In this document: one piece after another, positions 1-43,260 of the stretch
Numbering within the stretch: position 1 is the stretch's first letter
Layout of the letters: every line of letters begins with the position of its first letter
Virus record (IMG/VR): IMGVR_UViG_3300036660_000029
Span: 1 to 43,260 of that record
DNA length: 43,260 nt
Origin: a virus
Taxonomy: Duplodnaviria; Caudoviricetes
Direction: 5' to 3' (one strand)
Notes under the pieces: model-generated
Database searches by the model: none
What the model saw: the letters and a program-made list of their open reading frames with translations, nothing else
What the model was told of the DNA's origin: nothing
Translations under genes and position numbers: made by a program

Positions 1-127
1 AGGTATGACAGACCTTTTTATCACTCACTTAAATATACTCATTGGTGGCAGGACAATGCTGGATACTACCGTAACCCAAATCACTTGAATGTGGTTAAGC
101 TGGATTTAATAAAAGATATTCCCTTCC
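1..127. repeat. Terminal direct repeat, copy 1 (circular-assembly overlap)
   Basis: aggtatgacagacc...gatattcccttcc at 1-127 is identical to 43134-43260, and the reading frame continues across it. Confidence 0.97.
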
Positions 128-246
128 AGGATAAGACAATTGGCGAGGACGGATGCTGGTCAGAGGATATATTTAAAGCCGGGGTTTTGAAAACAGAATA
201 CGAAATAATCAAACCATTTTATAGATACTTATGCAGGACAAAATGA
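1..246 (+). CDS. 3' part of a GT2-like glycosyltransferase that starts at 42816 (about 187 aa on the circle)
   Basis: Frame 1 reads RYDRPFYHSLKY...FQDKTIGEDGCWS...LCRTK to TGA at 244-246. It has the GED motif of GT-A enzymes and is missing from the ORF track because it is split. Confidence 0.85.
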   Translation, partial: RYDRPFYHSLKYTHWWQDNAGYYRNPNHLNVVKLDLIKDIPFQDKTIGEDGCWSEDIFKAGVLKTEYEIIKPFYRYLCRTK

Positions 247-482
247 GCAACAAGAAAGCAATTCGAGAACTAGCAATGTTTACCGTATTAGGTACGATGT
301 TATGCGATATAAACCGGCCTCGATTTACGCCTGAAAGCAAGGCAAAATTAAGAGAGTTGAGAATGCAACAAGGTTTTGAATCTCAGCCTAAAAATAAAGG
401 ATTAAAAGAGTTTAATATTGATGGTAAAATAGTATGGTCTATAAACGAAAAGAACGCTATTAGAAAATCTAGGCCTATATGA
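243..482 (+). CDS. Hypothetical protein
   Basis: ORF track gives 231. ATG at 243 overlaps the upstream TGA (ATGA), so it is the likelier start. Confidence 0.7.
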   Translation: MSNKKAIRELAMFTVLGTMLCDINRPRFTPESKAKLRELRMQQGFESQPKNKGLKEFNIDGKIVWSINEKNAIRKSRPI

Positions 483-1234
483 AGTTACTTAGCTACTCCC
501 TATTCGGCTCCCGTACAACCGATAAATGGTTATTCAACTTTTACCTCCGGGGCTTTGTCTGGAATGTAAAAATGAACCGCTTATTATATCCGGGCTGGCA
601 AACACACGTAGAACTTGACAGCGGAACATTTTCGGACTACGATCATATCTTTACAGAACTGCAAAAGCATTACGGTATAAGCTATAATATAGATGCAGAG
701 GACGAATTATGCAAATCAATGCTATGGCGATTCAAGCCTGTATTTTGGCCTAATAGCGAAATGGTATTATGTAGAGATGCGGATGCGATAACTACGGCAA
801 GAGAGTGTATAGCTGTTCAGGAGTGGGAGGAATCGGGAATGAGAATACACGGCATAAATGACAACCGGGCGCATCAATTACCGTTAATGGGTGGCATGGT
901 CGGTTTAAAATGCGATGCGATACGTGAAGAGTTTGGAACATGGGATAACTTCATGGATGGTGCCGGTGATTTATCTAAACACGGTTCAGATCAGAAGCAT
1001 ATTATGAAGCAATTGCACAGACCGGGCACTAATTACACGCTAATAACTAATATGTTAGGGCGTGGTAGTGATCATTCAAATCCGTTATGGACTTCTGATT
1101 TAACATGTAGGCATATCGGGAGTGCTGGAGTTGTGGATATGGAAACGATACGGTTCTTTAATAAGCACGATGCAAATTCGGGATTTATTAAGACAGAGAA
1201 GATTTATAAAGAGGTATTTTATTGGTGGTTATGA
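479..1234 (+). CDS. Putative GT-A fold glycosyltransferase-like protein
   Basis: N-terminal SYSLFG, WRF, DxD motif (CRDAD), MGGMVG and SDQ; soluble. Confidence 0.6.
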   Translation: MKLLSYSLFGSRTTDKWLFNFYLRGFVWNVKMNRLLYPGWQTHVELDSGTFSDYDHIFTELQKHYGISYNIDAEDELCKSMLWRFKPVFWPNSEMVLCRDADAITTARECIAVQEWEESGMRIHGINDNRAHQLPLMGGMVGLKCDAIREEFGTWDNFMDGAGDLSKHGSDQKHIMKQLHRPGTNYTLITNMLGRGSDHSNPLWTSDLTCRHIGSAGVVDMETIRFFNKHDANSGFIKTEKIYKEVFYWWL

Positions 1235-1413
1235 AAGAATTAAAAATATACGAATTTCAGGCAAAGCAAATTGAAGATACTTTTAGGATGGTTTCAAATT
1301 GCTTGGAAAGCAAGGATAAGAAAACGTGCCTTGACCGTGACATTATGCAGTCTTGGGAAATGATCAAGAATATTATTAACGAACAGCCAGATAAACAAGT
1401 TAAGCGATTTTAA
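1231..1413 (+). CDS. Hypothetical protein
   Basis: ATG at 1231 overlaps the upstream TGA. Confidence 0.65.
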   Translation: MKELKIYEFQAKQIEDTFRMVSNCLESKDKKTCLDRDIMQSWEMIKNIINEQPDKQVKRF

Positions 1414-1416
1414 TTT

Positions 1417-2079
1417 ATGAGAACAGTAGTAATTTCACACAACAACAACCCGGAATACGCATTCTTTGAGCCTGTTGTTAAATGGGCATGGAAGCGTCTA
1501 GGATGGGACGTATTAACAATGGTGACAGATAGTGTTATAACCTCGCAATGTATCCGCTTGTACGCTCATACGTGCGTTACACCCGATACGATGTTAATGA
1601 CATCGGATATTGATATGTTGCCGTTGTCTAACTATTGGAGGCCGAACAATGCGGACATAACATGCTACGGGCGTAATTTATCAGACAGGCATCAGCCTAT
1701 TTGCTATATCGCAATGCCAGGTAGACTATGGAGTGCGGTTATGGGTAATGACATGAAAGGCGATATTAAGCAATCAAGTGAATCGTGGACAACGGATCAG
1801 GATATAGTAACGGCTAAACTTAAATGGTTTGTATGGAATGAAATTGACCGCCCTATCTCACCACTTACAGGCTACCCAGTAGGGCGTATTGATCGTAGTG
1901 CATGGGATAAGTCACTACGGCAAACCGAACGCATAGACAGCCACTTATTACGTCCAGGCTGGACAGATGAAAACTGGACTAAGATAATCGCATTAATAAC
2001 TGAATGCTTAGACCCGACTATTGAAGATTTACACTTTTTACACACTCATAGAACACAATGGATAAAATCGCATTCTTAA
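1417..2079 (+). CDS. Putative glycosyltransferase (GT-A, DxD)
   Basis: LMTSDIDMLPL DxD motif, TDQ, RIDRS, DSH. Confidence 0.6.
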   Translation: MRTVVISHNNNPEYAFFEPVVKWAWKRLGWDVLTMVTDSVITSQCIRLYAHTCVTPDTMLMTSDIDMLPLSNYWRPNNADITCYGRNLSDRHQPICYIAMPGRLWSAVMGNDMKGDIKQSSESWTTDQDIVTAKLKWFVWNEIDRPISPLTGYPVGRIDRSAWDKSLRQTERIDSHLLRPGWTDENWTKIIALITECLDPTIEDLHFLHTHRTQWIKSHS

Positions 2080-2687
2080 CCCTGGCAGTGGGTGATCCAC
2101 GGTATATTGAACAGCAAAACCGTCTGATTGAATCAATAAAGCTTTATCACCCGGAGGCTAGGATATATAAATGGACAAACGAATACCCGGAGGGCTCCAG
2201 GCCTCACGATGAAAGCATGTACGGATTTAAAGTGCATGCCGTTCAACATGCTATATGCAACGGATATACAAAAATCATTTGGGTAGATACGGCATGTATT
2301 TTAGTTGACCGGGTAGATGATTTGTTTGAACTTGCAAAGCAATACGGTGTAGTAGCCGCAGAGGATGCAAATAAGTTAGTGCAATATTGTCATCCAGACG
2401 CTTGGAAATGGTTTAAGGAGCCCGTAAATAATGATTATCATCTAGTGGGTGGTAGCCTATTTGTATTTGACTTCGATAATTATCTTTGCGAGGTGATATT
2501 TGATAAATGGGCACAGTCTGAATTAGCTGGGCAATTTGGTACTAAAGATACAAGGTTAGGGCATAGACACGATGAAAGCTGTATGGCATTAGCTTTATAC
2601 AGTGCAGGGAGTAAGCCGGTGCCATATCCCGAATGTAGGTATGACGATGTTCCTGATAGAATCATGGTTAAAAAACACTTCAAATGA
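2058..2687 (+). CDS. Putative glycosyltransferase / nucleotide-diphospho-sugar transferase
   Basis: FLTLA start strand, FKVHAV, IIWVDTAC and HRHDES resemble GT-A enzymes. Confidence 0.65.
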   Translation: MDKIAFLTLAVGDPRYIEQQNRLIESIKLYHPEARIYKWTNEYPEGSRPHDESMYGFKVHAVQHAICNGYTKIIWVDTACILVDRVDDLFELAKQYGVVAAEDANKLVQYCHPDAWKWFKEPVNNDYHLVGGSLFVFDFDNYLCEVIFDKWAQSELAGQFGTKDTRLGHRHDESCMALALYSAGSKPVPYPECRYDDVPDRIMVKKHFK

Positions 2688-2869
2688 ACAAGCCAAGTAA
2701 TAAACTAAAAATAGGGAGATATCAAATAAGTTGCTGTATGTACTTACTTGCGAGAATTGACATTATACCCAGTGTTAATGCTGAAAAGGTTGGCAGATTA
2801 AACGTGCTTCAATTTGCATGGCTTTTCTTTTCCTTAGAATTAACACTTAGAAACATTAACGAAGATTAA
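2684..2869 (+). CDS. Hypothetical protein
   Basis: ORF coupled to both neighbours. Confidence 0.55.
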   Translation: MNKPSNKLKIGRYQISCCMYLLARIDIIPSVNAEKVGRLNVLQFAWLFFSLELTLRNINED

Positions 2870-3445
2870 ATGAACATACAAACAATTGGAGAGCATTCCA
2901 TAGATACAGACCTTTTAACGGTTGGTATAGCCATTGACGTAGGCTGTTTAGGCTTTGAATTTAGCAAAGGTATGCGGGATTTAGGATGTGAAGTGCATGC
3001 ATTTGATCTGATCCATTTAGAGGACAAACCAGCCGGGATTTACTTCTCAGTTGCAGCTATAACTGATAAAGACGAAAAGGTACACGTAATGAACACGCCT
3101 GATCGTCAAGCATGGCACCTGAATAAAAAGGGCGGAATTGTAGTAGATTCAATTAGTATAAACAAGTTGTACGGCTTCTTTGCTGGTCAGGAAGTGGATG
3201 TGTTGAAGCTGGATTGCGAGGGCTCAGAATACGATATATTATCTGATCCAGGTTTTAGACCGATACCACGGCAAATCTCATTTGAAATGCACTATCATTG
3301 CCATAAGACAAAACATGAGCGGCTATACGCTAAATGTATCGCAAATCTTGAAAGGTATTATGTGCCTATTCAACATGAATGGGATGCGAGGCATGGGAGC
3401 GGATTAAATTTATGGGATAGTTTGTGGATAAAAAAGGGATTATGA
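2870..3445 (+). CDS. FkbM-family SAM-dependent O-methyltransferase
   Basis: IDVGC SAM motif and VLKLDCEGSEYDIL FkbM signature. Confidence 0.85.
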   Translation: MNIQTIGEHSIDTDLLTVGIAIDVGCLGFEFSKGMRDLGCEVHAFDLIHLEDKPAGIYFSVAAITDKDEKVHVMNTPDRQAWHLNKKGGIVVDSISINKLYGFFAGQEVDVLKLDCEGSEYDILSDPGFRPIPRQISFEMHYHCHKTKHERLYAKCIANLERYYVPIQHEWDARHGSGLNLWDSLWIKKGL

Positions 3446-3585
3446 AAAGATTGGCCAAAGCAATATTGATACTTATTTTAATAAACCTCGTCATTTCTTG
3501 CTTTGCAATGAGGATAAAACATCCTGAATATACAGAAACTCAATTATTTTTTAATATACCCAAAGCATTTATTTGGAACTTATGA
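3442..3585 (+). CDS. Small membrane or signal-anchored protein (47 aa)
   Basis: Hand translation MKRLAKAILILILINLVISCFAMRIKHPEY...IWNL; ATGA overlaps at both ends. Confidence 0.6.
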   Translation: MKRLAKAILILILINLVISCFAMRIKHPEYTETQLFFNIPKAFIWNL

Positions 3586-4094
3586 CAAAAGAACAATTTT
3601 TAAGTAACGTTTCATCCTGGAACGATCATCTGCCTTTATTATGGCTGGCATTACAGGAAACTAAAGGCTCAGTAGCCGAATTTGGATCAGGGGACGGAAG
3701 CACGCCCTATCTACGTGAATATTGCAAGGATACGGAACGTGAGTTTTTCACTTATGACAATAGTCCTGAATGGTGCCATACAACAGGCTCTACGTTCGTA
3801 AACTGGTCAGACGCTTCGCTATATCGTGAGTATGATGTTTGCTTAATAGATCACGCTCCAGGTGAGTTAAGGCATGAGGCGATAGCGATATTAAAGGACA
3901 AGGTGAAAATCATTGTAATACATGATAGCGAGCCCATAGGTTGCGGAAATTACAAGCTGCATAAGATTTGGCATCTGTTTAAATATATTGTTCACCTCAA
4001 ATCAGAGGGTGCCTGGGCAACGGCTGTTAGTAATCATATTGATGTTACCAAATGGGCTGGTCAGGAATTAGCGGGGTTTAAGATAGATGTATGA
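3582..4094 (+). CDS. Class I SAM-dependent methyltransferase-like protein
   Basis: VAEFGSGDGST motif I, CLIDH and IHDSE. ATG at 3582 preferred over TTG at 3573. Confidence 0.7.
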   Translation: MTKEQFLSNVSSWNDHLPLLWLALQETKGSVAEFGSGDGSTPYLREYCKDTEREFFTYDNSPEWCHTTGSTFVNWSDASLYREYDVCLIDHAPGELRHEAIAILKDKVKIIVIHDSEPIGCGNYKLHKIWHLFKYIVHLKSEGAWATAVSNHIDVTKWAGQELAGFKIDV

Positions 4095-4735
4095 AAATAG
4101 GTATAGGAATTACAACAACTTCAAACCGTTCAGAGATAGCGGAAAGGAATATTGAAACTATACGGGCTTTATCCGCGGGTTGTAAAATAGTTGTTGTTAA
4201 GGATGTGATAGGCATTGCTAAAGCTAAAAACGAATGCTTGAGGCAATTAGATGATTGCGAGCATATATTTTTATTTGATGATGATACGTACCCAAAAAAA
4301 GATGACTGGTATTTGCCATACATAGAAGCACTTACCCCTCACCTATCATTTACATTCTCAAAACTACACAACGGAGCTACTAACGGGAATAGGGTACTTG
4401 ATGGGAAATTCATGGGACTTAATATATTCCAAAATCCTTGCGGTTGTATGATGTATATTCATAAACGATGCTTAGATGTTATCGGAGGCTTTGATGAACG
4501 CTTTATAGGCTGGGGGTATGAGCATGTTAACTTCTCGCAACGGGTATTTAATGCAGGCTTAACCCCTTACCCGTTTATGGATGTTGCCAACAGTCTGGAA
4601 TTACTGCACTCAATGGATTACTACGGAGAGGTTAAAAGCAGTGTTAACGGCATGGATAGGATGAAATATATCCAGAATAACAGACCGATTTATGAGATGG
4701 AGAGTTTGAGTAAGGAGTTTATAAAATATAAATAA
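4091..4735 (+). CDS. GT2-family glycosyltransferase
   Basis: IGITT, KNECL, FLFDDD and GGFDERFIGWGYEH. Confidence 0.85.
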   Translation: MKIGIGITTTSNRSEIAERNIETIRALSAGCKIVVVKDVIGIAKAKNECLRQLDDCEHIFLFDDDTYPKKDDWYLPYIEALTPHLSFTFSKLHNGATNGNRVLDGKFMGLNIFQNPCGCMMYIHKRCLDVIGGFDERFIGWGYEHVNFSQRVFNAGLTPYPFMDVANSLELLHSMDYYGEVKSSVNGMDRMKYIQNNRPIYEMESLSKEFIKYK

Positions 4736-4998
4736 TGACAGCAGAAGAAACATTAAACGTTGTAGCTAAAGAAAACGGATACGCCAGTTATTTGGATTGC
4801 ATTACTTTTGGTAATACATACTATATACACCTTATAGCACGATTATCAGCAGAGCGTTATGCTTTAATACAAATAGAGAAAGACAGAAATAGTATAAAGG
4901 ACATATGGAAGCCACTTGCACCATGCGATATGGATACTATGCAAAATTGGAGAAACATTCGGAACGGAATAGACCAAATTGAAATCCAATTAGACTAA
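4735..4998 (+). CDS. Hypothetical protein
   Basis: ORF coupled to the upstream gene by TAATG. Confidence 0.65.
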   Translation: MTAEETLNVVAKENGYASYLDCITFGNTYYIHLIARLSAERYALIQIEKDRNSIKDIWKPLAPCDMDTMQNWRNIRNGIDQIEIQLD

Positions 4999-5535
4999 AT
5001 GAAAATCCGCTACATAACACCGTTTTCCTTTGAAAAAAACATCGGCAAAGCCCTAAATGAATCCATAGAAGAATTACCAGACGATTGTTTTGTGGTTTGT
5101 CGTGACGGCGATACCTTATTCATGCTACCTGATTGGGGTATGCAGATCAAAGAGATTATAGAGGCAAATCCCGATTATCACATTATCGGATGTATGACAA
5201 ATCGGCTATCTGTTCCACAACAATTAGCTCCCGGAATGTTTGACGAATCTGATATTGGTAAGCATATAGAAACGGCTCAAACCCTGCAACAATACAGAAC
5301 AGAGGTCGTAAAATCGAATATAGCGGCTGGTTTATGTATGATCTTTCATAAATCGGTATGGCAAAAATGTAAATTCAAAGAAAATACTGTTATATTTGAT
5401 AGGATATTCTGCATAGAGGCTTCAAAAAATGGCTTCAATATCGGGATAGCTAAAGGGTTGTACTTATTTCACCTTTACAGGTGGGGTAAAAAGAACCCGG
5501 AACAGTACAAAGACCACCTTAACCCCTTTTTATAA
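4999..5535 (+). CDS. Putative GT2-like glycosyltransferase
   Basis: YITPF, GKALN, CRDGD DxD, AGLCMIF, D..FC and YLFH; TAATG-coupled to the neck gene. Confidence 0.7.
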   Translation: MKIRYITPFSFEKNIGKALNESIEELPDDCFVVCRDGDTLFMLPDWGMQIKEIIEANPDYHIIGCMTNRLSVPQQLAPGMFDESDIGKHIETAQTLQQYRTEVVKSNIAAGLCMIFHKSVWQKCKFKENTVIFDRIFCIEASKNGFNIGIAKGLYLFHLYRWGKKNPEQYKDHLNPFL

Positions 5536-22523: not shown

Positions 22524-22801
22524 TATTAATATCTGTTAAGTCCGAGGTGATTGATTTCCGGAGACAGTTTGAAAAGGATTTGGATGCTGAAAGGTATTTG
22601 AAGAGGATTAAGCGGTTAATTAATTTACATAGAGTGTATTTATTAAGGCCGCTTAAACGCGAGATAGCGAAACACCGGCAAAGATCGTTTAATAAAATGA
22701 GAGCGATTCGTTTTTATAAGTACGGAATGCAGACCGCTATCCCGTTACGCATAGAGATTATTAACACAAACGCAAACCAATTACAACTACAAATCAAATG
22801 A
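22520..22801 (+). CDS. Basic hypothetical protein
   Basis: ORF coupled at both ends. Confidence 0.6.
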   Translation: MILISVKSEVIDFRRQFEKDLDAERYLKRIKRLINLHRVYLLRPLKREIAKHRQRSFNKMRAIRFYKYGMQTAIPLRIEIINTNANQLQLQIK

Positions 22802-23880
22802 ATTTTACAGTAACACAAAAAGAATTGAACGCCACCTTAAACGTAGTAATTAAGGCCGTAAAGCAAAACCCGGTATTCCCGATACTTGAACATGTTAAGG
22901 TTAATGTAACAGAAGAAACAATTGTTTTAACTTGTTCAAATCAGAATGTTGAACTATCTGCAACGATTAATGCCAAAAACAAGGATGCGGTTTCATTTTG
23001 CATACCAGCTAAAAAGCTAAGCGATTTAGTCAAGAACCTTGCAGATCAGCCATTGTCATTTGAAGTAAAGGACGGTAAAGCAAAGATCAAATCAAGTTCT
23101 GGTAAATACGAAATACCCACTGAAAGCGTGGAAGATTTTCCGGTATTCAATAAAGATAAAGACGCGGATACGTTTTCAATTTCTGCAACTGACTTTTTTA
23201 ACGGTATTAATAAAACTGAATTTGCAGTATTAAAAGAGAGCGTAGAATCAAGGCCAAACATGGCAGGGGTATTTATTGAACTTAGTGATAAAATAATCTT
23301 TACAGCAACGGATTCACACCGTATGAATCATTGTGAGTTTAAGGCCAGCCCAGCAAAAGGCAGCTTTATTATTCCTTCAACATCTTTGCCAGCTTTGCCG
23401 GATGCAGAAGGCCAGGTATTATGTTCATTATCAAAGAACTCAATCAGCCTTTCATTTGAAAACGGTATTGAGTTTAACTCTTCTTTAGTTGATGAGAAAT
23501 TTCCTGACTATAAAGCAATTATACCTGTAAATGAAAAGGGTTTTGAGGTTGGGAAGAATGAAATAATCGGGGCCTTAAAGCGTGTTATCGGTTTTGCTAA
23601 CGGGATCACAAAACAGGTTAAATTAACATTCGGTAAAACAGTGATTTTATCAGGTGAGGATAAAGCATATTCAGAGAATGCAGAAGAAACCTTAAACGGG
23701 AAATGGCTATTTGATGATTTGCAGATAGGGTTAAACGGTTCAATAATGCTTGAATCATTGCAAAGTCTTGACGGCGATATTGCTTATTTCTCATTATCGG
23801 AAGCTAATAGAGCGGTTATATTAAAAGATGATCCAAAAAGTGAAAATTATATTTTATTAATGCCCATGGTTATAAGTTAA
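22798..23880 (+). CDS. dnaN: DNA polymerase III beta sliding clamp
   Basis: 360 aa; PILE, RP.M.GV, ATDSHRM, FPDY..IIP and terminal LLMPM. Confidence 0.92.
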   Translation: MNFTVTQKELNATLNVVIKAVKQNPVFPILEHVKVNVTEETIVLTCSNQNVELSATINAKNKDAVSFCIPAKKLSDLVKNLADQPLSFEVKDGKAKIKSSSGKYEIPTESVEDFPVFNKDKDADTFSISATDFFNGINKTEFAVLKESVESRPNMAGVFIELSDKIIFTATDSHRMNHCEFKASPAKGSFIIPSTSLPALPDAEGQVLCSLSKNSISLSFENGIEFNSSLVDEKFPDYKAIIPVNEKGFEVGKNEIIGALKRVIGFANGITKQVKLTFGKTVILSGEDKAYSENAEETLNGKWLFDDLQIGLNGSIMLESLQSLDGDIAYFSLSEANRAVILKDDPKSENYILLMPMVIS

Positions 23881-23885
23881 TTTTA

Positions 23886-23986
23886 TATCTTAGTGTTATG
23901 CTTACTGGAGATTAAGCAATCGAAAACATTTAACCGGGTATAGCCGGGTGCGGATCTCCAGTCCAATCCCGGCTGTACCTTTTTTT
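23886..23986 (+). promoter_or_regulatory. Structured leader 2: promoter TATCTTAG, 5' hairpin, terminator with complementary loop
   Basis: TGCTTA-CTGGAGAT-TAAGCA hairpin. ACTGGAGAT (23904-23912) pairs with ATCTCCAGT (23954-23962) in the loop of stem GGTATAGCCGGG/CCCGGCTGTACC, which is followed by a T7 tract. Confidence 0.75.
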
Positions 23987-23993
23987 ATTTAAA

Positions 23994-25385
23994 ATGAAAC
24001 TACAACCACAATTATTTAACGACAAAATCGAATTTGAAAATGTCGTGTCCGTTATCGGCTCAGGCTACGAGGGCCAAGTATCAAAATTAGCCGTAGAGGA
24101 CGGGGTAGCCTATCGGGCAGCTAGAAAAAACATGCAGATACATTCTGCTATTATTCTAAAGATTAACGATGAATTTTCCGGGTTTATGACCTATGAAATC
24201 AATCATGACGCAAAAGAGTTTTGTCTTTTGCAGTCTGCTATGGATTTAAAGAAGAAAAACAAAGAGGTTTATTCGGGCATGGTAGGCGAAATCATTAAAC
24301 AAAACACCTACGGATATCCGATGGTAATGACCGTAAGTCAAAAGCACGATTTAGAAAACCCTAAAGTTTTTTCAGCTATTGGATTTAAAGAATATCTAAA
24401 CATGAGCGGATATTCCTACATGGTATACGGAGAATTTGAACAGGTAAGGATGAAACGTCTTGCACACGCAACAATGACTAATGTCTGGAACTCAACTAAA
24501 GGGGATTGGCTTAAAATGAAAAAAGGCTGGAACGAACAAATAGAAGCGGCTGGAGAAAAATACGAAATTGCAAACCCTAAATTTGCTTCACGGGATGGTT
24601 GCTGGCAGGGTAAAAACGGTATGTCGAATGTTGTTTTGGCAAATCATAGCATTGGCGAAGACGGCGAAGTCCAGCACAACAAGGGGAAATCATTTAACGG
24701 TAACGCATCTGTTCTTGACCCGGTTGCTTGCGAAGTTATCTTGCGCTTCTTTATGCCTATTGAAGGTAAGAGGGTTTACAATCCGTTTGGTGGAGGGGTT
24801 CAGTTTGGATTTATTTCAGGTGCGTGTGGTTACGAATACCTATCAAGCGAGATAAGGCAAAACCAGTGCGATGCTAATAATGCGATTTGTCAGGACTTTG
24901 ACGCTAAATGGCATCAATCCGATTCATCCACGTTTACCCCAGAAAAGAAATATGATTTAGTTTTCAGCTGTCCACCGTATTACAAAGTAGAGGAATATCT
25001 AGATTATGACGGAAAAGCTCCAGAAGGTGAACTAAATACCATCCCTAACTATGAGGCATTTAGAGATACCTTGTTTGAGGGTTACAAAAAAGGCATCGAG
25101 GCAATGAATGATAATTGTTTCTTTGTTGTAATGACAGGTGACAGCCGAGATAAAAACGGGGCGTATTACGGTTGTGAAGCCGAACATGAGATTTGGTTCA
25201 AGCAGCAAGGTTTACATATTTATAATAAGATTGTATATTTAGAATGTGAGTTTACAAGACTTGCACACGCTAAGAGGACTTTGCATTACCGTAAATTCCC
25301 GAAAAGAGAACAAAAGATATTGGTTTTCTACAAAGGCGATATGACAAAGATTAAAGATCGGTTTGTAAATATAGGCCGCTTGTAA
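23994..25385 (+). CDS. Amino (N6-A / N4-C type) DNA methyltransferase with a putative N-terminal GNAT-like domain
   Basis: YNPFGGG motif I and FSCPPYY motif IV; N-terminal FSGFMTY...LLQSAM...FSAIGFK resembles GNAT. Confidence 0.75.
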   Translation: MKLQPQLFNDKIEFENVVSVIGSGYEGQVSKLAVEDGVAYRAARKNMQIHSAIILKINDEFSGFMTYEINHDAKEFCLLQSAMDLKKKNKEVYSGMVGEIIKQNTYGYPMVMTVSQKHDLENPKVFSAIGFKEYLNMSGYSYMVYGEFEQVRMKRLAHATMTNVWNSTKGDWLKMKKGWNEQIEAAGEKYEIANPKFASRDGCWQGKNGMSNVVLANHSIGEDGEVQHNKGKSFNGNASVLDPVACEVILRFFMPIEGKRVYNPFGGGVQFGFISGACGYEYLSSEIRQNQCDANNAICQDFDAKWHQSDSSTFTPEKKYDLVFSCPPYYKVEEYLDYDGKAPEGELNTIPNYEAFRDTLFEGYKKGIEAMNDNCFFVVMTGDSRDKNGAYYGCEAEHEIWFKQQGLHIYNKIVYLECEFTRLAHAKRTLHYRKFPKREQKILVFYKGDMTKIKDRFVNIGRL

Positions 25386-26221
25386 TGCGTGAGTATTCAG
25401 AGAAAATATCGCTAACCCAAAATTCAAGAGGTATCTATTCTTTAGATACCTCTATCGGGTGTGCTTCTGGAATGGAAAACGAAGCCGGTGGTTGCTATAA
25501 TGACTGCTACGCTGCAAAATCTGCAAAGTTATACGGTTATGATTTTAGTAAAACAGTTTTAAGGTCATTTGAAAACGAACGCCAAAGAATACAGATAGTA
25601 AAGAAAATAGGCCGCATAGGTTTAGATTTTGTACGTATCGGAACAAGTGGCGATCCGTCTGAAAACTGGCAACATACTATTTCGATAATTAAGCAAATAG
25701 AGCACTGTAATAAGCAAATCGTAATCATAACCAGGCATTGGACTGAATTAACAGACGAACAGTTACAATATTTTAGCACTATTAATATTTGCATAAATAC
25801 AAGCATTTCAGCACTTGATAAGCCTGAATTATTAGATAGTTGCCTTAACCAATACGAACGGCTTAAACCGTACTGCAAATCAATTTTAAGGGTGGTATCA
25901 GCTAGTTTTAACTTAGATAATCCAGGAGGCCACAGAATGGCTAAAATACAGGCAGCATTATTTAAGAATGATGCCGTGATTGACACTGTATTAAGGGTAA
26001 ATAAAAGCAACCTATTAGTTAAGAGCGGTGTAATTAACGTAACGAAAAGCGAGTTTTTAGGTAAAAAGGCACTTATTAGTAAGTACAATAAAAGCACTTA
26101 TTTTGGCAAATGTTCAACATGTCATGAGATGTGCGGATTGAATGTAAAATCTGAATTACAGCATCCTGAAAAGCCTGGAACGGTTAAACAATTAGGAATA
26201 TTTAAAAGTAAACGGAAATGA
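25385..26221 (+). CDS. Radical-SAM-like Fe-S protein
   Basis: GC-x10-C-x3-CYA, RIGTSGDP, ITR, SISALD and C-terminal CSTCHEMC; Cys spacing is atypical. Confidence 0.55.
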   Translation: MREYSEKISLTQNSRGIYSLDTSIGCASGMENEAGGCYNDCYAAKSAKLYGYDFSKTVLRSFENERQRIQIVKKIGRIGLDFVRIGTSGDPSENWQHTISIIKQIEHCNKQIVIITRHWTELTDEQLQYFSTINICINTSISALDKPELLDSCLNQYERLKPYCKSILRVVSASFNLDNPGGHRMAKIQAALFKNDAVIDTVLRVNKSNLLVKSGVINVTKSEFLGKKALISKYNKSTYFGKCSTCHEMCGLNVKSELQHPEKPGTVKQLGIFKSKRK

Positions 26222-26613
26222 AACAAAAAAACCTATTCGGTGATGAATTTAAGCCGGCAGAAAATACAAAATACTCATCTAAGATTGACGCTCCTATTTA
26301 TGAGCCAAAGAATAAAAAGCCGCATGTTTTAGAACTTGTTAATGAAAGCAAATCTAAAAGAATGATTAAAGAGATTGAAGCCTCGGGTATCCCTAAAGAA
26401 GAAAAGAGATTTTTAATTGAGGCTGCAAAAAGGCACAATGTTTTTAATTATGAAAAGATTGCTGATTATTATGCTCATTCAAGTGCAGAGGTTCAGAACT
26501 TGATGGAAAACTCGGCTTTAGTTATTATTGATTTCAATAAAGCGATTGAATACGGATATGTGAAATTATGTGATGATATTAAATCTCAATACCTAGAAGA
26601 ATATGGAGAATAA
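26218..26613 (+). CDS. Hypothetical protein preceding the glycosyltransferase
   Basis: YSSKIDAPIYEP...IADYYAH...MENSALVIIDF; overlaps the next gene. Confidence 0.7.
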   Translation: MKQKNLFGDEFKPAENTKYSSKIDAPIYEPKNKKPHVLELVNESKSKRMIKEIEASGIPKEEKRFLIEAAKRHNVFNYEKIADYYAHSSAEVQNLMENSALVIIDFNKAIEYGYVKLCDDIKSQYLEEYGE

Positions 26614-27463
26614 TTCTTTTGCGGTTTTTATCTTGACTCACGGGCGGCCAGATAACGTCAAGACAGTGAAAACACTTCAAAGGTGTGGCTATACAGGTAA
26701 AACATATTTCATCGTAGATAATGAAGATGTATCTATTGATAGGTATATCGAAAATTTCGGGTCAGAATACGTTAAGGTTTTCGATAAAAAGGCAATAGCC
26801 GATAGTGTTGACGAGGGTAATAATTTTGATAATAGAAAGGTAATAATACACGCTAGGAATGCTTGTTTTGAGATAGCAAAGGAATTGAATGTAAAGTACT
26901 TCATTCAGCTTGACGATGATTACAAGGGCTTTGGTTACAGGCTTTTAATAAACGAAAAAGGGATTCACGTACCCATAAAGAGCCTAGATTCATATTTTAT
27001 AAAGCTAATTGCTTTTTACGAAACAAGAAATTTTTTAAGTATATCGTTTTCTCAGGGTGGTGATTTCATCGGAGGTCTAAACAACGGCAAAAAACTTTAC
27101 AGGTTTAGCAAAAGAAAATGCATGAACTCTTTTTTGTGTTCAATAGATAGGCCATTTAAGTTTATAGGTTCAATAAATGAAGATGTAAATACTTATACAT
27201 CTCTTGGTAGTCGCGGCGATCTGTTTTTGACAATACCGTTTGTTTCTTTAGACCAAGAAGCTACTCAAAGCAATAAAAGCGGTATGACAGATGTGTATGC
27301 GCTTTCTGGAACATATGTTAAATCATTCCATAGCGTTATGATGCATCCGTCTAGCGTTAAAATTGCCTTAATGCTAAGTAAGCACACTAGAATACATCAT
27401 GCAATAAAATGGATTAATACAGTACCGGTAATCATTAATGAAAAACACAAAAAACATGTTTAA
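26603..27463 (+). CDS. GT-A glycosyltransferase resembling phage DNA-base (TAGT-like) glycosyltransferases
   Basis: FILTHGRP, ARN, QLDDDY, INEDVN and Q.N.SGMT motifs. Confidence 0.65.
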   Translation: MENNSFAVFILTHGRPDNVKTVKTLQRCGYTGKTYFIVDNEDVSIDRYIENFGSEYVKVFDKKAIADSVDEGNNFDNRKVIIHARNACFEIAKELNVKYFIQLDDDYKGFGYRLLINEKGIHVPIKSLDSYFIKLIAFYETRNFLSISFSQGGDFIGGLNNGKKLYRFSKRKCMNSFLCSIDRPFKFIGSINEDVNTYTSLGSRGDLFLTIPFVSLDQEATQSNKSGMTDVYALSGTYVKSFHSVMMHPSSVKIALMLSKHTRIHHAIKWINTVPVIINEKHKKHV

Positions 27464-40527: not shown

Positions 40528-41208
40528 ATGATCAGCGTAATACATCCGAGCAGGGGGAGGCCAGAATTAGCGTTTGATACTATGGTATCTAAGTGGCTAT
40601 TAAAAAATGATAGCGGTAAAAATATTCAATATATAGTATCGGTAGATGAAGATGATCCTGAATTATATAAATATAAATATTGGTTTACCGAGGTTTGCGA
40701 GGGCATAGGTTTTGTTGTCAATCCCAATAAATCGGCAATAGATGCAATAAACAACGCCGCCAAAATAGCAACAGGCGATTTACTTGTCGTCATAAGCGAT
40801 GATATGGACTGCCCCGAACGCTGGGATACCTTACTATTAGAAGCCATTGGTGACAAACAAGACTTTTGCGCTAAAACCTCAGACGGTCATCAGGACTGGT
40901 TAATCACTTTGCCGATTCTTGATAGAACTTTCTATAATAGATTTGGATACGTATACCATCCCGATTTTAAGCATATGCATTGTGACTTAGACCTTACGTG
41001 CAGGGCGTGGATGTTAGATAGGTATATTGAATTGCCTTTGACATTCAAACATAATCACTATTCACTAACTGGGCAGCAGCCAGACGAAATTAACCGCAGA
41101 AACAACGCAACATGGGGGCACGGGAGGATGACATTCAATGAAAGACTGGCAAGGAATTTTGATCTGGCAGGCGGCCTTAAGCCATTACCTATTTTACCTA
41201 AATACTGA
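40528..41208 (+). CDS. GT2-like glycosyltransferase
   Basis: ISVIHPSRGRP, VSVDEDD, AINNAA..ATGD, ISDD, CD.D and H.H. Confidence 0.8.
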   Translation: MISVIHPSRGRPELAFDTMVSKWLLKNDSGKNIQYIVSVDEDDPELYKYKYWFTEVCEGIGFVVNPNKSAIDAINNAAKIATGDLLVVISDDMDCPERWDTLLLEAIGDKQDFCAKTSDGHQDWLITLPILDRTFYNRFGYVYHPDFKHMHCDLDLTCRAWMLDRYIELPLTFKHNHYSLTGQQPDEINRRNNATWGHGRMTFNERLARNFDLAGGLKPLPILPKY

Positions 41209-41774
41209 TGAAAAGACCTTTATACCTTTTAAAATTACCGGCTCCAATAATTGATTTGGACGGGGAAATATGGAAACCCGTTATTGTTAATATCATTCAT
41301 TATAAGTATGAGATAAGCAACATGGGAAGATTAAAGTATTTTTCAAGATCGGCTCCCAGATTGGTAAGCACATCAAAGAAACCTAATATGTACAGTTGTC
41401 ATACATTGTATGGCTATGGAGAAACACCGGATATTAATATATCTATACATAGGCTAGTAGGTTTGCATTTTGTTGAAAACCCAGATAATTTACCAGAGGT
41501 GAACCATAAGAACGCTATCAAAAACGATAATCTGCATAGCAATTTGGAATGGGTAACTAAAAAAGGAAATTCTCAACACGCATTAATAAACGGGTTGCGG
41601 ATATTCAAATACGGGTCGGACAATAAATCTGCAAAGTTGGCTATAAATATAGAAACCGGGATATTTTATGATACAATAAGAGATGCGGCCAAAGCACACA
41701 ATCTTAAACACGGTACCCTTACACATAGACTTTCAGGAAGATTAGTTAACAACACATCTATTTTAGTTGTATGA
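41208..41774 (+). CDS. NUMOD4-HNH homing endonuclease
   Basis: EIWKPV, YEISNMGR, HRLV..HF...VNHKN..K.DN...NLEWVT and a C-terminal NUMOD1-like segment. Confidence 0.92.
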   Translation: MKRPLYLLKLPAPIIDLDGEIWKPVIVNIIHYKYEISNMGRLKYFSRSAPRLVSTSKKPNMYSCHTLYGYGETPDINISIHRLVGLHFVENPDNLPEVNHKNAIKNDNLHSNLEWVTKKGNSQHALINGLRIFKYGSDNKSAKLAINIETGIFYDTIRDAAKAHNLKHGTLTHRLSGRLVNNTSILVV

Positions 41775-42442
41775 ACCTCCTTATAAAATACGCAACCCGT
41801 GGCCGCAGATCGTTGTACAATCAAGCGATCAGGAATGTAGAAGCTATGACAGCCGGAACATATCAGTTAGTAGTATCTGCTGATAATTGCGATCCGTGTA
41901 TGCAGGGATTAAATATTAACTACGATGCCAGAACCTCTAAGATCGGAGCTATTAATAGGGATTTAGATAATGTCAAATTCGACTGGTTAGTGAACTTTAG
42001 TGATGATATGATTTTCACCGCTCCGGGTTGGGATCAAAGGATGCTACGAAAAATCCGCTCCATTTGGGGTGATAGCACTGACTTCTTTGCTCATTTCAAT
42101 GATGGCTTTGTTGGTCATAAATTACCCACTATGTCCGTTATCGGCTGGGACTATTACCAACGTGACAAATACATTTATCATCCCTCATACAAGTCCGTAT
42201 CATGTGATGCGGAGGCTATGTTCGTGGCTATGATGCGAGGCAGGCACCACTATTTCCCGGAGGTGTACTTTAATCACATACACCCGGCAAATTTGCGTTT
42301 TCCATCTGATCAAACGTATAGGGATAATGATAAGTTTGGATCAGAGGACACGGCTAACTATTTTGAACGGATGTCAAGATGTTTTGAAGTTGAAAACCCG
42401 GTAATGGTGCCGGATGAAATTAGGAGGGCAATGAAGATATGA
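41771..42442 (+). CDS. GT2-like glycosyltransferase (distant paralog of 40528)
   Basis: KYATRGR, KIGAINR, FSDDM, YIYHP.YK...CD.E and H.HP. Confidence 0.75.
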   Translation: MNLLIKYATRGRRSLYNQAIRNVEAMTAGTYQLVVSADNCDPCMQGLNINYDARTSKIGAINRDLDNVKFDWLVNFSDDMIFTAPGWDQRMLRKIRSIWGDSTDFFAHFNDGFVGHKLPTMSVIGWDYYQRDKYIYHPSYKSVSCDAEAMFVAMMRGRHHYFPEVYFNHIHPANLRFPSDQTYRDNDKFGSEDTANYFERMSRCFEVENPVMVPDEIRRAMKI

Positions 42443-42828
42443 AAGCAAATGAATTAAGGATAGGGAATACAATAATGTCTATGGCTGGCATTGTTACTGT
42501 AAGGTCCATTAATGATGCAAGCGATGGGCATTACATTGGAATGAAAGAATTTGTGTTCGCATCTAATATTAGCGAGTTTTCAGGCATCCCATTAACTGAA
42601 GAATGGTTGTTGAAGTTTGGGTTTAAATACCAACGTCCAGGAATTGGTGGTCAAGATTCATGGGCTGGTTACGGGTTTTGGCAATTACCTAATAATGAAT
42701 TTAATCTTATAGGAACAAAGTCAGGAACAGTATATTTTAACAGGTGTTGGGATTGGCAAATCAAACACGTTCACCAACTCCAAAACCTTTACTTTGCCTT
42801 AACCGGAACTGAATTATGCAAAAGTTAG
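42439..42828 (+). CDS. Conserved hypothetical phage protein
   Basis: MKANELRIGN...IPLTEEWLLKFGF...HQLQNLYFALTG.EL. Confidence 0.75.
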   Translation: MKANELRIGNTIMSMAGIVTVRSINDASDGHYIGMKEFVFASNISEFSGIPLTEEWLLKFGFKYQRPGIGGQDSWAGYGFWQLPNNEFNLIGTKSGTVYFNRCWDWQIKHVHQLQNLYFALTGTELCKS

Positions 42829-43260
42829 CTTTACTTATCCCAACATTAGACGGGCGTGAGCAATACCTAGAGAGGCTATTAACCGTATTACGCCCTCAAG
42901 TCAATGCGTACGGTGATAATGCCGAGATAATCATACTAAAGGACAACCGTGAGAAAACAACAGGATGGAAGCGTAACGCACTTACCGAAATGGCTATCAT
43001 CTCAGGTGCAACACATCGGGCGTTCATAGATGATGATGATACAGTTACAGACGATTACATGGATTTAAATATGCCGGGAGTTATGCAGGATTTTGACTGT
43101 AATTCATTGGTAGGTCTGTATTTCTTAAACGGTAGGTATGACAGACCTTTTTATCACTCACTTAAATATACTCATTGGTGGCAGGACAATGCTGGATACT
43201 ACCGTAACCCAAATCACTTGAATGTGGTTAAGCTGGATTTAATAAAAGATATTCCCTTCC
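42816..43260 (+). CDS. 5' part of a GT2-like glycosyltransferase continuing through the junction to position 246
   Basis: MQKLALLIPTLDGREQYL.RLL...KRNAL...AFIDDDD.V..DY; open to the end of the window. Confidence 0.85.
   Translation, partial: MQKLALLIPTLDGREQYLERLLTVLRPQVNAYGDNAEIIILKDNREKTTGWKRNALTEMAIISGATHRAFIDDDDTVTDDYMDLNMPGVMQDFDCNSLVGLYFLNGRYDRPFYHSLKYTHWWQDNAGYYRNPNHLNVVKLDLIKDIPF
43134..43260. repeat. Terminal direct repeat, copy 2
   Basis: Identical to 1-127. Confidence 0.97.

What the first reader, a model, noticed from the sequence alone, without database searches (positions are those of the whole stretch)
23994..27463. Putative novel DNA hypermodification operon: GNAT-methyltransferase fusion, atypical Fe-S enzyme, partner protein and glycosyltransferase
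Seen: four coupled genes behind their own leader, in the replication region and far from the structural GT island. They encode an amino-methyltransferase with CPPY and a GNAT-like N-terminus, a C-x10-C-x3-C protein with a second Cys cluster, a 131-aa protein and a GT-A enzyme. Established: phage base-glycosylating GTs usually act on hydroxymethyl-pyrimidines made by TET/JBP or thymidylate-synthase-like enzymes, and Mu Mom is a GNAT-fold DNA modifier. I see no TET/JBP or hydroxymethylase here. Inference: a post-replicative route in which methylation or acylation and radical chemistry create the acceptor for a sugar, giving a possibly new base.
Basis: partly seen in the sequence, partly recalled or inferred. 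Interest (0 to 1): 0.75.

Follow-up and report, generated by a model that had tools for sequence, protein, structure and literature searches.

The report
Two stacked phage DNA-modification cassettes
The four genes are two separate, widespread phage gene pairs that happen to sit side by side: one pair (an acyltransferase-fold/methyltransferase-fold fusion plus a radical-SAM-fold protein) likely puts an undescribed, larger-than-methyl group on DNA bases, and the other (a sugar transferase plus a small partner) likely sugars DNA without the usual hydroxylating enzyme.

Summary
The genes and motifs are real, but they are not one pathway. The window is a complete 43-kb phage.

Pair A+B: A has a GNAT fold plus an amino-methyltransferase fold; B has a spore-photoproduct-lyase-like radical SAM fold. 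A lies beside B in 83 of 83 B-anchored loci, and the two are fused in 9 of 22 A-anchored loci.

Pair C+D: C is a ParB C-terminal-like domain and D a TAGT glycosyltransferase. They lie together in 79 of 80 D-anchored loci, none with A or B. Only one other record has all four genes.

Distant relatives of A's transferase are fused to or flanked by PLP enzymes or SAM decarboxylases. A therefore likely transfers SAM's aminocarboxypropyl arm to a base amine, which the GNAT and radical SAM domains would tailor (inferred, untested).

C+D phages lack TET (0 of 14 near-complete records) and thymidylate synthase (0 of 20), so the sugar acceptor is unknown. Phages with one pair still avoid restriction palindromes, which argues against blanket protection.

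This scan noted the A+B trio before on another genome (e1-9771722). Verdict: new variant of phage DNA hypermodification; interest 0.62.

The parts
23881..23993 (+). Intergenic leader with a strong hairpin (about 23936-23981) followed by a U-run ending just before A's ATG; terminator or attenuator-like, not conserved in sequence
23994..25385 (+). Gene A, 463 aa. Residues 11-147: GNAT fold without the usual glycine-rich CoA loop. Residues about 150-448: class I SAM-dependent amino-transferase fold (motif I NPFGGG before motif IV SCPPY), related to phage ParB-fused 'CPPY' methylases (phrog_498)
25385..26221 (+). Gene B, 278 aa. Radical-SAM fold, best solved match spore photoproduct lyase; non-canonical C-x10-C-x3-C triad and a second C-x2-C-x3-C triad; partner of A, fused N-terminally to A in other genomes
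26218..26613 (+). Gene C, 131 aa. Stand-alone form of a domain that elsewhere is the C-terminal part of phage ParB-like proteins (phrog_620 positions 125-215); partner of D
26603..27463 (+). Gene D, 286 aa. TAGT-family GT-A glycosyltransferase (PF20691; phrog_842) with R15, DDD104-106 and ED193-194 conserved

Best explanation
This phage carries two independent gene pairs side by side: A+B likely hangs an amino-acid-derived group from SAM on DNA bases and tailors it, and C+D likely adds a sugar to DNA by a separate route. SHOWN: the folds and motifs; A and B travel together or fused; C and D travel together; the pairs almost never share a genome; C+D genomes lack TET and thymidylate synthase matches. 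INFERRED, step 1: A's C-terminal domain uses its PPY motif to attack SAM with an exocyclic base amine (adenine N6, cytosine N4 or guanine N2) in replicated phage DNA. It most likely transfers the 3-amino-3-carboxypropyl arm rather than the methyl. Step 2: the GNAT-fold domain acylates the free amine of that arm; the donor is uncertain because the CoA loop is degenerate. Step 3: B, an SPL-like radical SAM enzyme, remodels the adduct by hydrogen abstraction (rearrangement, shortening or ring closure). The order of steps 2 and 3 is unknown. Separately, D glycosylates DNA with C as its ParB-derived helper, on an acceptor that no known phage hydroxylase makes. Both marks would be sequence-limited, and stacking them would widen nuclease protection. 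My odds: two independent pairs 0.9; A+B makes a larger-than-methyl DNA base 0.55; the aminocarboxypropyl route specifically about 0.3; C+D glycosylates DNA 0.6.
For: Pairing: A in 83 of 83 B-anchored loci (55 non-redundant B genes); C in 79 of 80 D-anchored loci (60 non-redundant), the miss being at a contig edge. Of 22 A-anchored loci, 18 have a B-family gene (9 fused in one ORF) and 2 have a canonical Radical_SAM gene in its place. Independence. Folds: B to spore photoproduct lyase 4fhc, Z 11.7, rmsd 4.2, 223 aligned, with radical SAM enzymes in the first 37 rows. A to NatC 7l1k, Z 16.0, rmsd 2.2, 130 aligned, and to Trm11 5e72, Z 17.4, rmsd 2.5, 178 aligned. Chemistry lead: of 12 cultured-phage neighbourhoods of A's transferase relatives that I opened (29 records matched), 4 have a PALP-family PLP enzyme, in one polypeptide with the transferase in Pam4 and ZS04 and adjacent in Mae-JY30 and Vincenzo. 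Two have a SAM decarboxylase directly downstream (ZRG1, P2559S). The PLP gene is in 24 of 80 further viral loci and is scattered over the tree, 14 changes for 21 tips. The sister of the A clade, L339, swaps the GNAT for a domain weakly like the tRNA-dependent lysyltransferase LPG_synthase_C (E 0.011, below cut-off). All these partners act on amino acids or amines, not on methyl groups (established knowledge). Precedent: PLP, radical SAM and GNAT enzymes tailor amino acids on phage DNA (PMC8989533, passages). Position: between the sliding-clamp and primosomal genes.
Against: No chemistry was measured. A's transferase is only 25-34% identical to the PLP- and decarboxylase-linked relatives and sits on a long separate branch. 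In the 80 distant loci, 56 show no PLP gene and none shows a SAM decarboxylase, and 4 of the 12 cultured neighbourhoods show no accessory enzyme. No PALP gene in 17 A+B records. Two A-anchored loci have no radical SAM neighbour (L326, L339), and no B match in their incomplete genomes. The best fold matches of A's transferase are tRNA guanine-N2 methyltransferases, ordinary methyl donors acting on RNA. The GNAT domain lacks R/QxxGxG and may be non-catalytic. 9 of 14 A+B-only and 13 of 14 C+D-only genomes still strongly avoid two or more 4-bp palindromes, so neither pair gives broad protection from restriction.
Confidence: 0.5

Rival explanations
1. A is a plain DNA amino-methyltransferase (m6A, m4C, or an unusual m2G). 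B then acts on the methylated base or repairs a DNA lesion as spore photoproduct lyase does, and the GNAT fold is a docking or regulatory domain.
For: Motifs I and IV are intact. Closest folds are methyl-transferring Trm11/TrmN/Trm14. Most distant relatives have no tailoring enzyme nearby (56 of 80). The GNAT CoA loop is degenerate. B's best match is a repair enzyme. A+B genomes still avoid palindromes.
Against: A simple methylase needs no fixed radical SAM partner, yet 20 of 22 A loci have one and 9 are fusions. GNAT-domain residues Y40, A43, R44, N46, Q48, H50 and S51 are invariant in 138 sequences. PLP and decarboxylase partners in the wider clade have no substrate in a methyl group.
Confidence: 0.2
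2. Elp3-like route on DNA: B's 5'-deoxyadenosyl radical activates acetyl-CoA held by the GNAT domain, the carboxymethyl radical adds to pyrimidine C5, and the transferase then methylates or alkylates the product, as Elp3 and Trm9 do on tRNA (pathway recalled; the Elp3 comparison was prompted by earlier finding e1-9771722).
For: In fusions the order is radical SAM, GNAT, transferase, and the radical SAM-GNAT order is that of Elp3 (recalled). The partnership is near-obligate.
Against: The GNAT lacks the canonical CoA pyrophosphate loop. The transferase has a PPY amino-acceptor motif rather than a carboxyl-methyltransferase site. Its relatives work without any radical SAM or GNAT.
Confidence: 0.12
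3. A+B modifies host or phage RNA (for example tRNA) rather than DNA.
For: Top fold matches are tRNA m2G methyltransferases, ahead of METTL5 (Z 14.6). Radical SAM and GNAT enzymes are common tRNA modifiers (established knowledge).
Against: Relatives of the transferase are ParB fusions, often next to terminase genes (ParB in 59 of 80 loci). B's best match acts on DNA. Compact RNA enzymes may outscore DNA methylases on Z only because the latter carry large extra domains (inference).
Confidence: 0.1
4. One reading: one four-gene route in which A and B build the acceptor that D glycosylates.
For: The genes are translationally coupled here. A second phage, L007/G048, has both pairs 700 bp apart in the same order. 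The two genomes with both pairs avoid palindromes least (0 and 1 strongly avoided).
Against: TAGT in 1 of 50 A+B records and 1 of 16 near-complete ones. B in none of the 49 D-anchored records. L007 has two unrelated ORFs between the pairs. The low-avoidance signal rests on two genomes (hand-computed exact p about 0.06) and may reflect host or lifestyle.
Confidence: 0.08

Closest known systems
Thymidine hypermodification pathways of phages M6, ViI and PaMx11 (Lee et al., PMC8989533; passages read)
   Same: Post-replicative tailoring of an amino acid on DNA by an SPL-like radical SAM isomerase (M6 gp53), a PLP enzyme and a GNAT acetyltransferase (PaMx11 gp48).
   Different: Those start from 5-hydroxymethyluracil, a kinase and an amino acid:DNA transferase. 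Here no thymidylate synthase homolog is found, and the entry enzyme would be a SAM-dependent PPY transferase. B's cysteine spacing differs from gp53's CxxxCxxC.
Phage ParB-fused 'CPPY' methylases (phrog_498; e.g. Vincenzo gp1 with 'carboxylate deaminase' gp2, ZRG1, P2559S, Pam4)
   Same: Same transferase domain, 25-34% identity, with shared SxxDP, PF(A/G)GG and CPPY motifs.
   Different: A replaces ParB with a GNAT fold and pairs with a radical SAM fold; it forms a separate, long-branched clade. I found no biochemistry for this clade in my searches.
TET/5mYOX-associated glycosyltransferases and ParB-dependent T-dioxygenase islands (Pyle et al., bioRxiv 10.1101/2023.12.21.572611, passages; O'Toole et al., PMC13229309, abstract and sections 9, 12, 13)
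   Same: D is a TAGT-family GT-A with the R...DDD...ED motif, and its partner is ParB-derived.
   Different: No 5mYOX/TET or thymidylate synthase match in this genome or in near-complete C+D genomes. C lacks the ParB nucleotide-binding domain that those papers show is needed to activate 5mYOX.
Mu Mom (Silva et al., PMC13219725; passages)
   Same: GNAT fold proposed to act on phage DNA.
   Different: Mom is a single enzyme that uses Gly-tRNA directly on adenine. A's GNAT is fused to a SAM transferase, and no library gave a Mom match.
Elp3 with Trm9 (recalled)
   Same: Radical SAM, GNAT and methyltransferase folds in one route.
   Different: Acts on tRNA U34, has a canonical cysteine motif and a CoA-binding KAT domain; A's transferase is of the amino-acceptor PPY type.

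Membership tests
TAGT glycosyltransferases (PF20691) | Profile score above the curated cut-off | tested here: met
   108.6 bits against 27.5, residues 6-223
TAGT glycosyltransferases (PF20691) | GT-A motif R...DDD...ED(Y/F) as given by Pyle et al. | tested here: met
   R15 in 57 of 57, D104-D106 in 56-57 of 57, E193-D194 in 56-57 of 57; the next residue is V, with Y at 198 (motif)
TET/5mYOX or ThyS-linked DNA glycosylation pathway | A 5mYOX/TET or thymidylate-synthase-like acceptor maker in the genome | tested here: not met
   None in the window's genome. PF12851 in 1 of 50 D records and 0 of 14 near-complete ones; PF00303 in 0 of 20. Divergent 5mYOX can escape PF12851.
5mYOX-activating ParB | [quoted passage not shown] | tested here: not met
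   C has no ParB_N and matches only phrog_620 positions 125-215. Homology of C to the ParB176 C-terminal domain was not tested.
Radical SAM superfamily | Partial TIM-barrel core | tested here: met
   Model pLDDT 93; 4fhc Z 11.7, rmsd 4.2, 223 aligned
Radical SAM superfamily | Canonical CxxxCxxC motif and PF04055 cut-off | tested here: not met
   Spacing is C-x9..11-C-x3-C in 85 of 89 rows. No Pfam hit for B; 3 of 97 relatives hit PF04055 weakly. B is filed as radical-SAM-like; non-canonical triads exist in the superfamily (recalled).
Radical SAM superfamily | [4Fe-4S]-dependent reductive cleavage of SAM | not testable with these tools
   Needs anaerobic reconstitution and 5'-deoxyadenosine detection
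GNAT acyltransferases | GNAT fold | tested here: met
   Residues 11-147: 7l1k Z 16.0, rmsd 2.2, 130 aligned; Atlas lead 0.89
GNAT acyltransferases | CoA pyrophosphate loop R/QxxGxG/A (motif recalled) | tested here: not met
   The matching stretch reads LKKKNKEVY, consensus LNKKDKxIY, with no conserved glycine
Mom family | Sequence or fold match to Mom with its HTH-like insertion | tested here: inconclusive
   No Mom-named hit in Pfam, PHROGs or NCBIfam; Mom is not among the 50 fold rows shown
Amino (N6A/N4C/N2G) methyltransferases | Class I fold with motif I FxGxG-like and motif IV (D/N/S)PP(Y/F) | tested here: met
   NPFGGG and (S/T)CPPY conserved in 138 sequences, with C in the first motif IV position; 5e72 Z 17.4
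Amino (N6A/N4C/N2G) methyltransferases | Transfers the methyl group of SAM | not testable with these tools
   Needs isotope-labelled SAM and LC-MS
Elp3 | Radical SAM plus KAT domain with Elp3 fold similarity | tested here: inconclusive
   The domain order in fusions matches; Elp3 is not among the rows shown

The most novel reading that the evidence does not exclude
A+B is a new entry route to DNA hypermodification: a methyltransferase-fold enzyme that transfers SAM's aminocarboxypropyl arm to an exocyclic base amine, possibly guanine N2, followed by acylation and radical remodelling to a base not yet described. It would be one branch of a large phage family whose other branches use PLP enzymes or SAM decarboxylase. 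C+D would in addition glycosylate DNA with no hydroxymethyl base, and phages that stack both pairs would escape most restriction.
Probability: 0.3. Interest if true: 0.85.

Novelty: new variant of a known kind. Interest (0 to 1): 0.62.

Why it matters
Known purine and cytosine amino-methyltransferase folds on DNA are assumed to add only methyl groups. If A's clade transfers the other arm of SAM, many phage genes annotated as 'DNA methylase' make bulky bases (about 3,100 stored viral stretches were estimated to match the clade's patterns). A+B would be a compact two-gene route to a new base and one of very few radical SAM enzymes acting on DNA. The C+D pair poses a second testable question, what a TAGT glycosylates when no TET or hydroxymethylase is present. 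It occurs in cultured phages (HHTV-2, phiLdb where the GT gene is split, and by C homology several E. coli and Vibrio phages), so virion DNA can be analysed directly. For annotation, the result warns against reading the four genes as one operon.

Tried and rejected
1. Four-gene pathway: rejected on co-occurrence.

2. Riboswitch leader: no Rfam family near its gathering score, and no sequence conservation upstream of the other A genes printed. An alternative pairing seen by eye (23904-23912 with 23955-23963) is not in the predicted structure.

3. Target motif from word bias: in flank loci (45 A+B against 50 C+D) AG and GA looked depleted. This did not hold in near-complete genomes (14 against 14; p 0.11-0.12), where only AAAG passed Bonferroni among 136 4-mers. 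No motif can be named. For one search, G058 was not fetched, G041 was read for 20 of 34 kb, and five others lacked their last 1-5 kb.

4. Sequence searches of solved structures gave nothing significant. B has no match in 50,697 cultured phage records.

5. Complex prediction for C with D was not available, so binding is untested. Foldseek searches did not run; only the VIA searches did.

6. P0398 looked like a C-D fusion but lacks D's first 70 or so residues, so I give it little weight.

7. Literature: ten searches found no paper on this trio, on ParB-methylase/PLP/SAM-decarboxylase clusters, or on TET-less TAGT pairs. Iyer et al. 2013 (NAR 41:7635, citation recalled) is not held and may already have predicted such neighbourhoods. 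No supplements were read; the 5mYOX and GT mining tables of O'Toole and Pyle could list C+D contigs.
Full report
CONTEXT. The window is a complete circular phage record: it has a 127-nt terminal repeat and 100% estimated completeness. It has siphovirus-type head, tail and lysis genes and a RecT, exonuclease, clamp and primosome region. A Bacteroidota host is likely from related records but was not established. The four genes lie between the beta-clamp and the primosomal genes.

OBSERVATION. All four ORFs, their overlaps and motifs are as described. The coupled run continues into a 76-aa ORF, so D is not a natural end. The leader is a terminator-like hairpin (z -3.99) with no Rfam family and no conserved counterpart. 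No TET or thymidylate synthase is found in the genome.

GENE A. Pfam and NCBIfam give nothing; PHROGs matches the C-terminal half to phrog_498, DNA methyltransferase. There are 2,345 relatives among 5,632 candidates. The model (pLDDT 82) has a GNAT domain at residues 11-147 (NatC Z 16.0, rmsd 2.2, 130 aligned). It has a class I transferase at 150-448 whose best matches are tRNA guanine-N2 methyltransferases: Trm11 Z 17.4 and 17.2, TrmN 16.3, Trm14 16.0. The GNAT keeps an invariant patch (Y40, R44, N46, Q48, H50, S51) but not the glycine-rich CoA loop.

GENE B. No library hit, 1,348 relatives among 1,963 candidates, and none in cultured phages. The Atlas points to GP88 and Radical_SAM clusters. 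The model (pLDDT 93) matches spore photoproduct lyase best (Z 11.7, rmsd 4.2, 223 aligned), followed by other radical SAM enzymes. Both cysteine triads are conserved. B is radical-SAM-like with a non-canonical motif; cluster binding is untested.

GENES C AND D. D is a TAGT-family GT-A with its catalytic motif intact. C matches only the C-terminal part of phrog_620. In 15 of 79 loci it lies in an ORF of 220 aa or more, and those printed begin with a ParB-like domain. Cultured phages show the same ParB-C plus glycosyltransferase layout in 2 of the 4 neighbourhoods opened (phiLdb, HHTV-2); in the other two the next gene is unannotated and I did not test it.

TWO PAIRS, NOT ONE OPERON. Of 83 B-anchored viral loci (27 and 56 new ones from the best 80 of 183), 83 have A and 1 has C and D; 62 have at least 2.5 kb downstream. 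On whole records, TAGT is in 1 of 50 A+B records and B in 1 of 50 C+D records, both being G048. Of 22 loci found through A, 18 have B, 9 of them in one ORF with A. Two have a canonical radical SAM gene instead, and two have none. Both pairs sit among varied neighbours, as mobile cassettes do. These samples favour close relatives; distant B and D loci were not surveyed.

WHAT A+B LIKELY DOES. The transferase has 25-34% relatives in 29 cultured phage records, mostly ParB fusions. Of 12 neighbourhoods opened, 4 have a PALP-family PLP enzyme (two in the same polypeptide), 2 a SAM decarboxylase, 1 a second methyltransferase, 1 an unassigned gene, and 4 nothing evident. In 80 further viral loci, chosen by likeness to a PLP-linked member, ParB is in 59, the PLP gene in 24 and SAM decarboxylase in 0. 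On a FastTree tree of 87 domains (107 extracted, near-identical ones dropped, Pam4 and ZS04 left out because the domain is split), PLP-linked tips are scattered: 14 changes, against a shuffled mean of 19 and minimum of 15. The A clade with L339 is separate, on a long branch. PLP enzymes, SAM decarboxylase and acyltransferases all need an amino acid or amine, which SAM's aminocarboxypropyl arm supplies and a methyl group does not. I therefore infer aminocarboxypropyl transfer to a base amine, then acylation and radical remodelling, in the manner shown for amino acids on thymidine in phages M6 and PaMx11 (PMC8989533, passages). This crosses a long evolutionary distance. No PALP gene is found in 17 A+B records.

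WHAT C+D LIKELY DOES. Characterised phage GT-A enzymes glycosylate hydroxymethyl- or hydroxy-pyrimidines made by 5mYOX or thymidylate synthase homologs (passages, abstract, passages). Here PF12851 is in 1 of 50 D records and 0 of 14 near-complete ones, and PF00303 in 0 of 20. O'Toole et al. note that many 5mYOX escape PF12851, so a divergent dioxygenase is not excluded, though no recurrent candidate appears among the 70 largest neighbour clusters. By analogy with the ParB helpers of T-dioxygenases, C most likely helps D engage DNA. The acceptor is unknown: an unmodified base, the backbone, a host-made mark or a protein are all open.

EVIDENCE AGAINST A DEFENCE ROLE. 9 of 14 A+B-only and 13 of 14 C+D-only genomes avoid two or more 4-bp palindromes at log2 ratio -2 or lower; the window avoids none and G048 one. 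One pair alone gives no blanket protection. The low avoidance with both pairs rests on two genomes. No target motif could be derived.

NOVELTY. Post-replicative DNA hypermodification is a known kind of system; this route is not described in the papers my ten searches reached, and Iyer et al. 2013 could not be read. These are unchecked notes, not support. I had reached the two-pair and aminocarboxypropyl readings before that call (notebook); the Elp3 rival came from it. A by-sequence look-up found nothing.

VERDICT. Observation confirmed; interpretation partly supported. New variant of a known kind, interest 0.62. The most novel reading has probability 0.3 and would deserve 0.85.

Noticed in passing
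window 40528-43260 and 1-5535: A run of at least eight glycosyltransferase- or methyltransferase-like genes lies between the major capsid gene and the head-tail adaptor; four have PHROG glycosyltransferase hits. It is a candidate virion-protein glycosylation island, interrupted by an HNH gene at 41208-41774.
   Followed up: no
window 22798-23880: Phage-encoded full three-domain DNA polymerase III beta clamp directly upstream of gene A. Phage phiCTP1 also has a clamp gene two genes after its related transferase.
   Followed up: no
window whole genome and G048: The two genomes with both pairs barely avoid 4-bp palindromes (0 and 1 at log2 ratio <= -2), unlike 22 of 28 single-pair genomes with two or more.
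   Followed up: partly
L339:3347-4987: In Riemerella columbipharyngis, A's transferase is fused to a weakly LPG_synthase_C-like domain instead of the GNAT, with no radical SAM neighbour.
   Followed up: partly
L029:7341-7877 and L329:5341-6246: A canonical Radical_SAM gene (over the Pfam cut-off) replaces B directly downstream of A.
   Followed up: partly
L169:2012-4501 and L173:2065-4503: In phages Pam4 and ZS04 a PALP-family PLP domain is inserted between motif I and motif IV of the transferase.
   Followed up: partly
L043:966-1634 (minus strand): One record carries both an A+B pair and a second, distant transferase that groups with the SAM-decarboxylase-linked ones.
   Followed up: no
upstream of A in L004, L005, L012, L042, L069, L071, L080, L086: Unrelated hairpin-like leaders followed by a T-run just before the start codon recur, judged by eye. 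They may be a general attenuator layout in these phages.
   Followed up: no
P0364: A distant B-family domain is fused to a long C-terminal region that looks like a DNA ligase or nucleotidyltransferase by eye.
   Followed up: no
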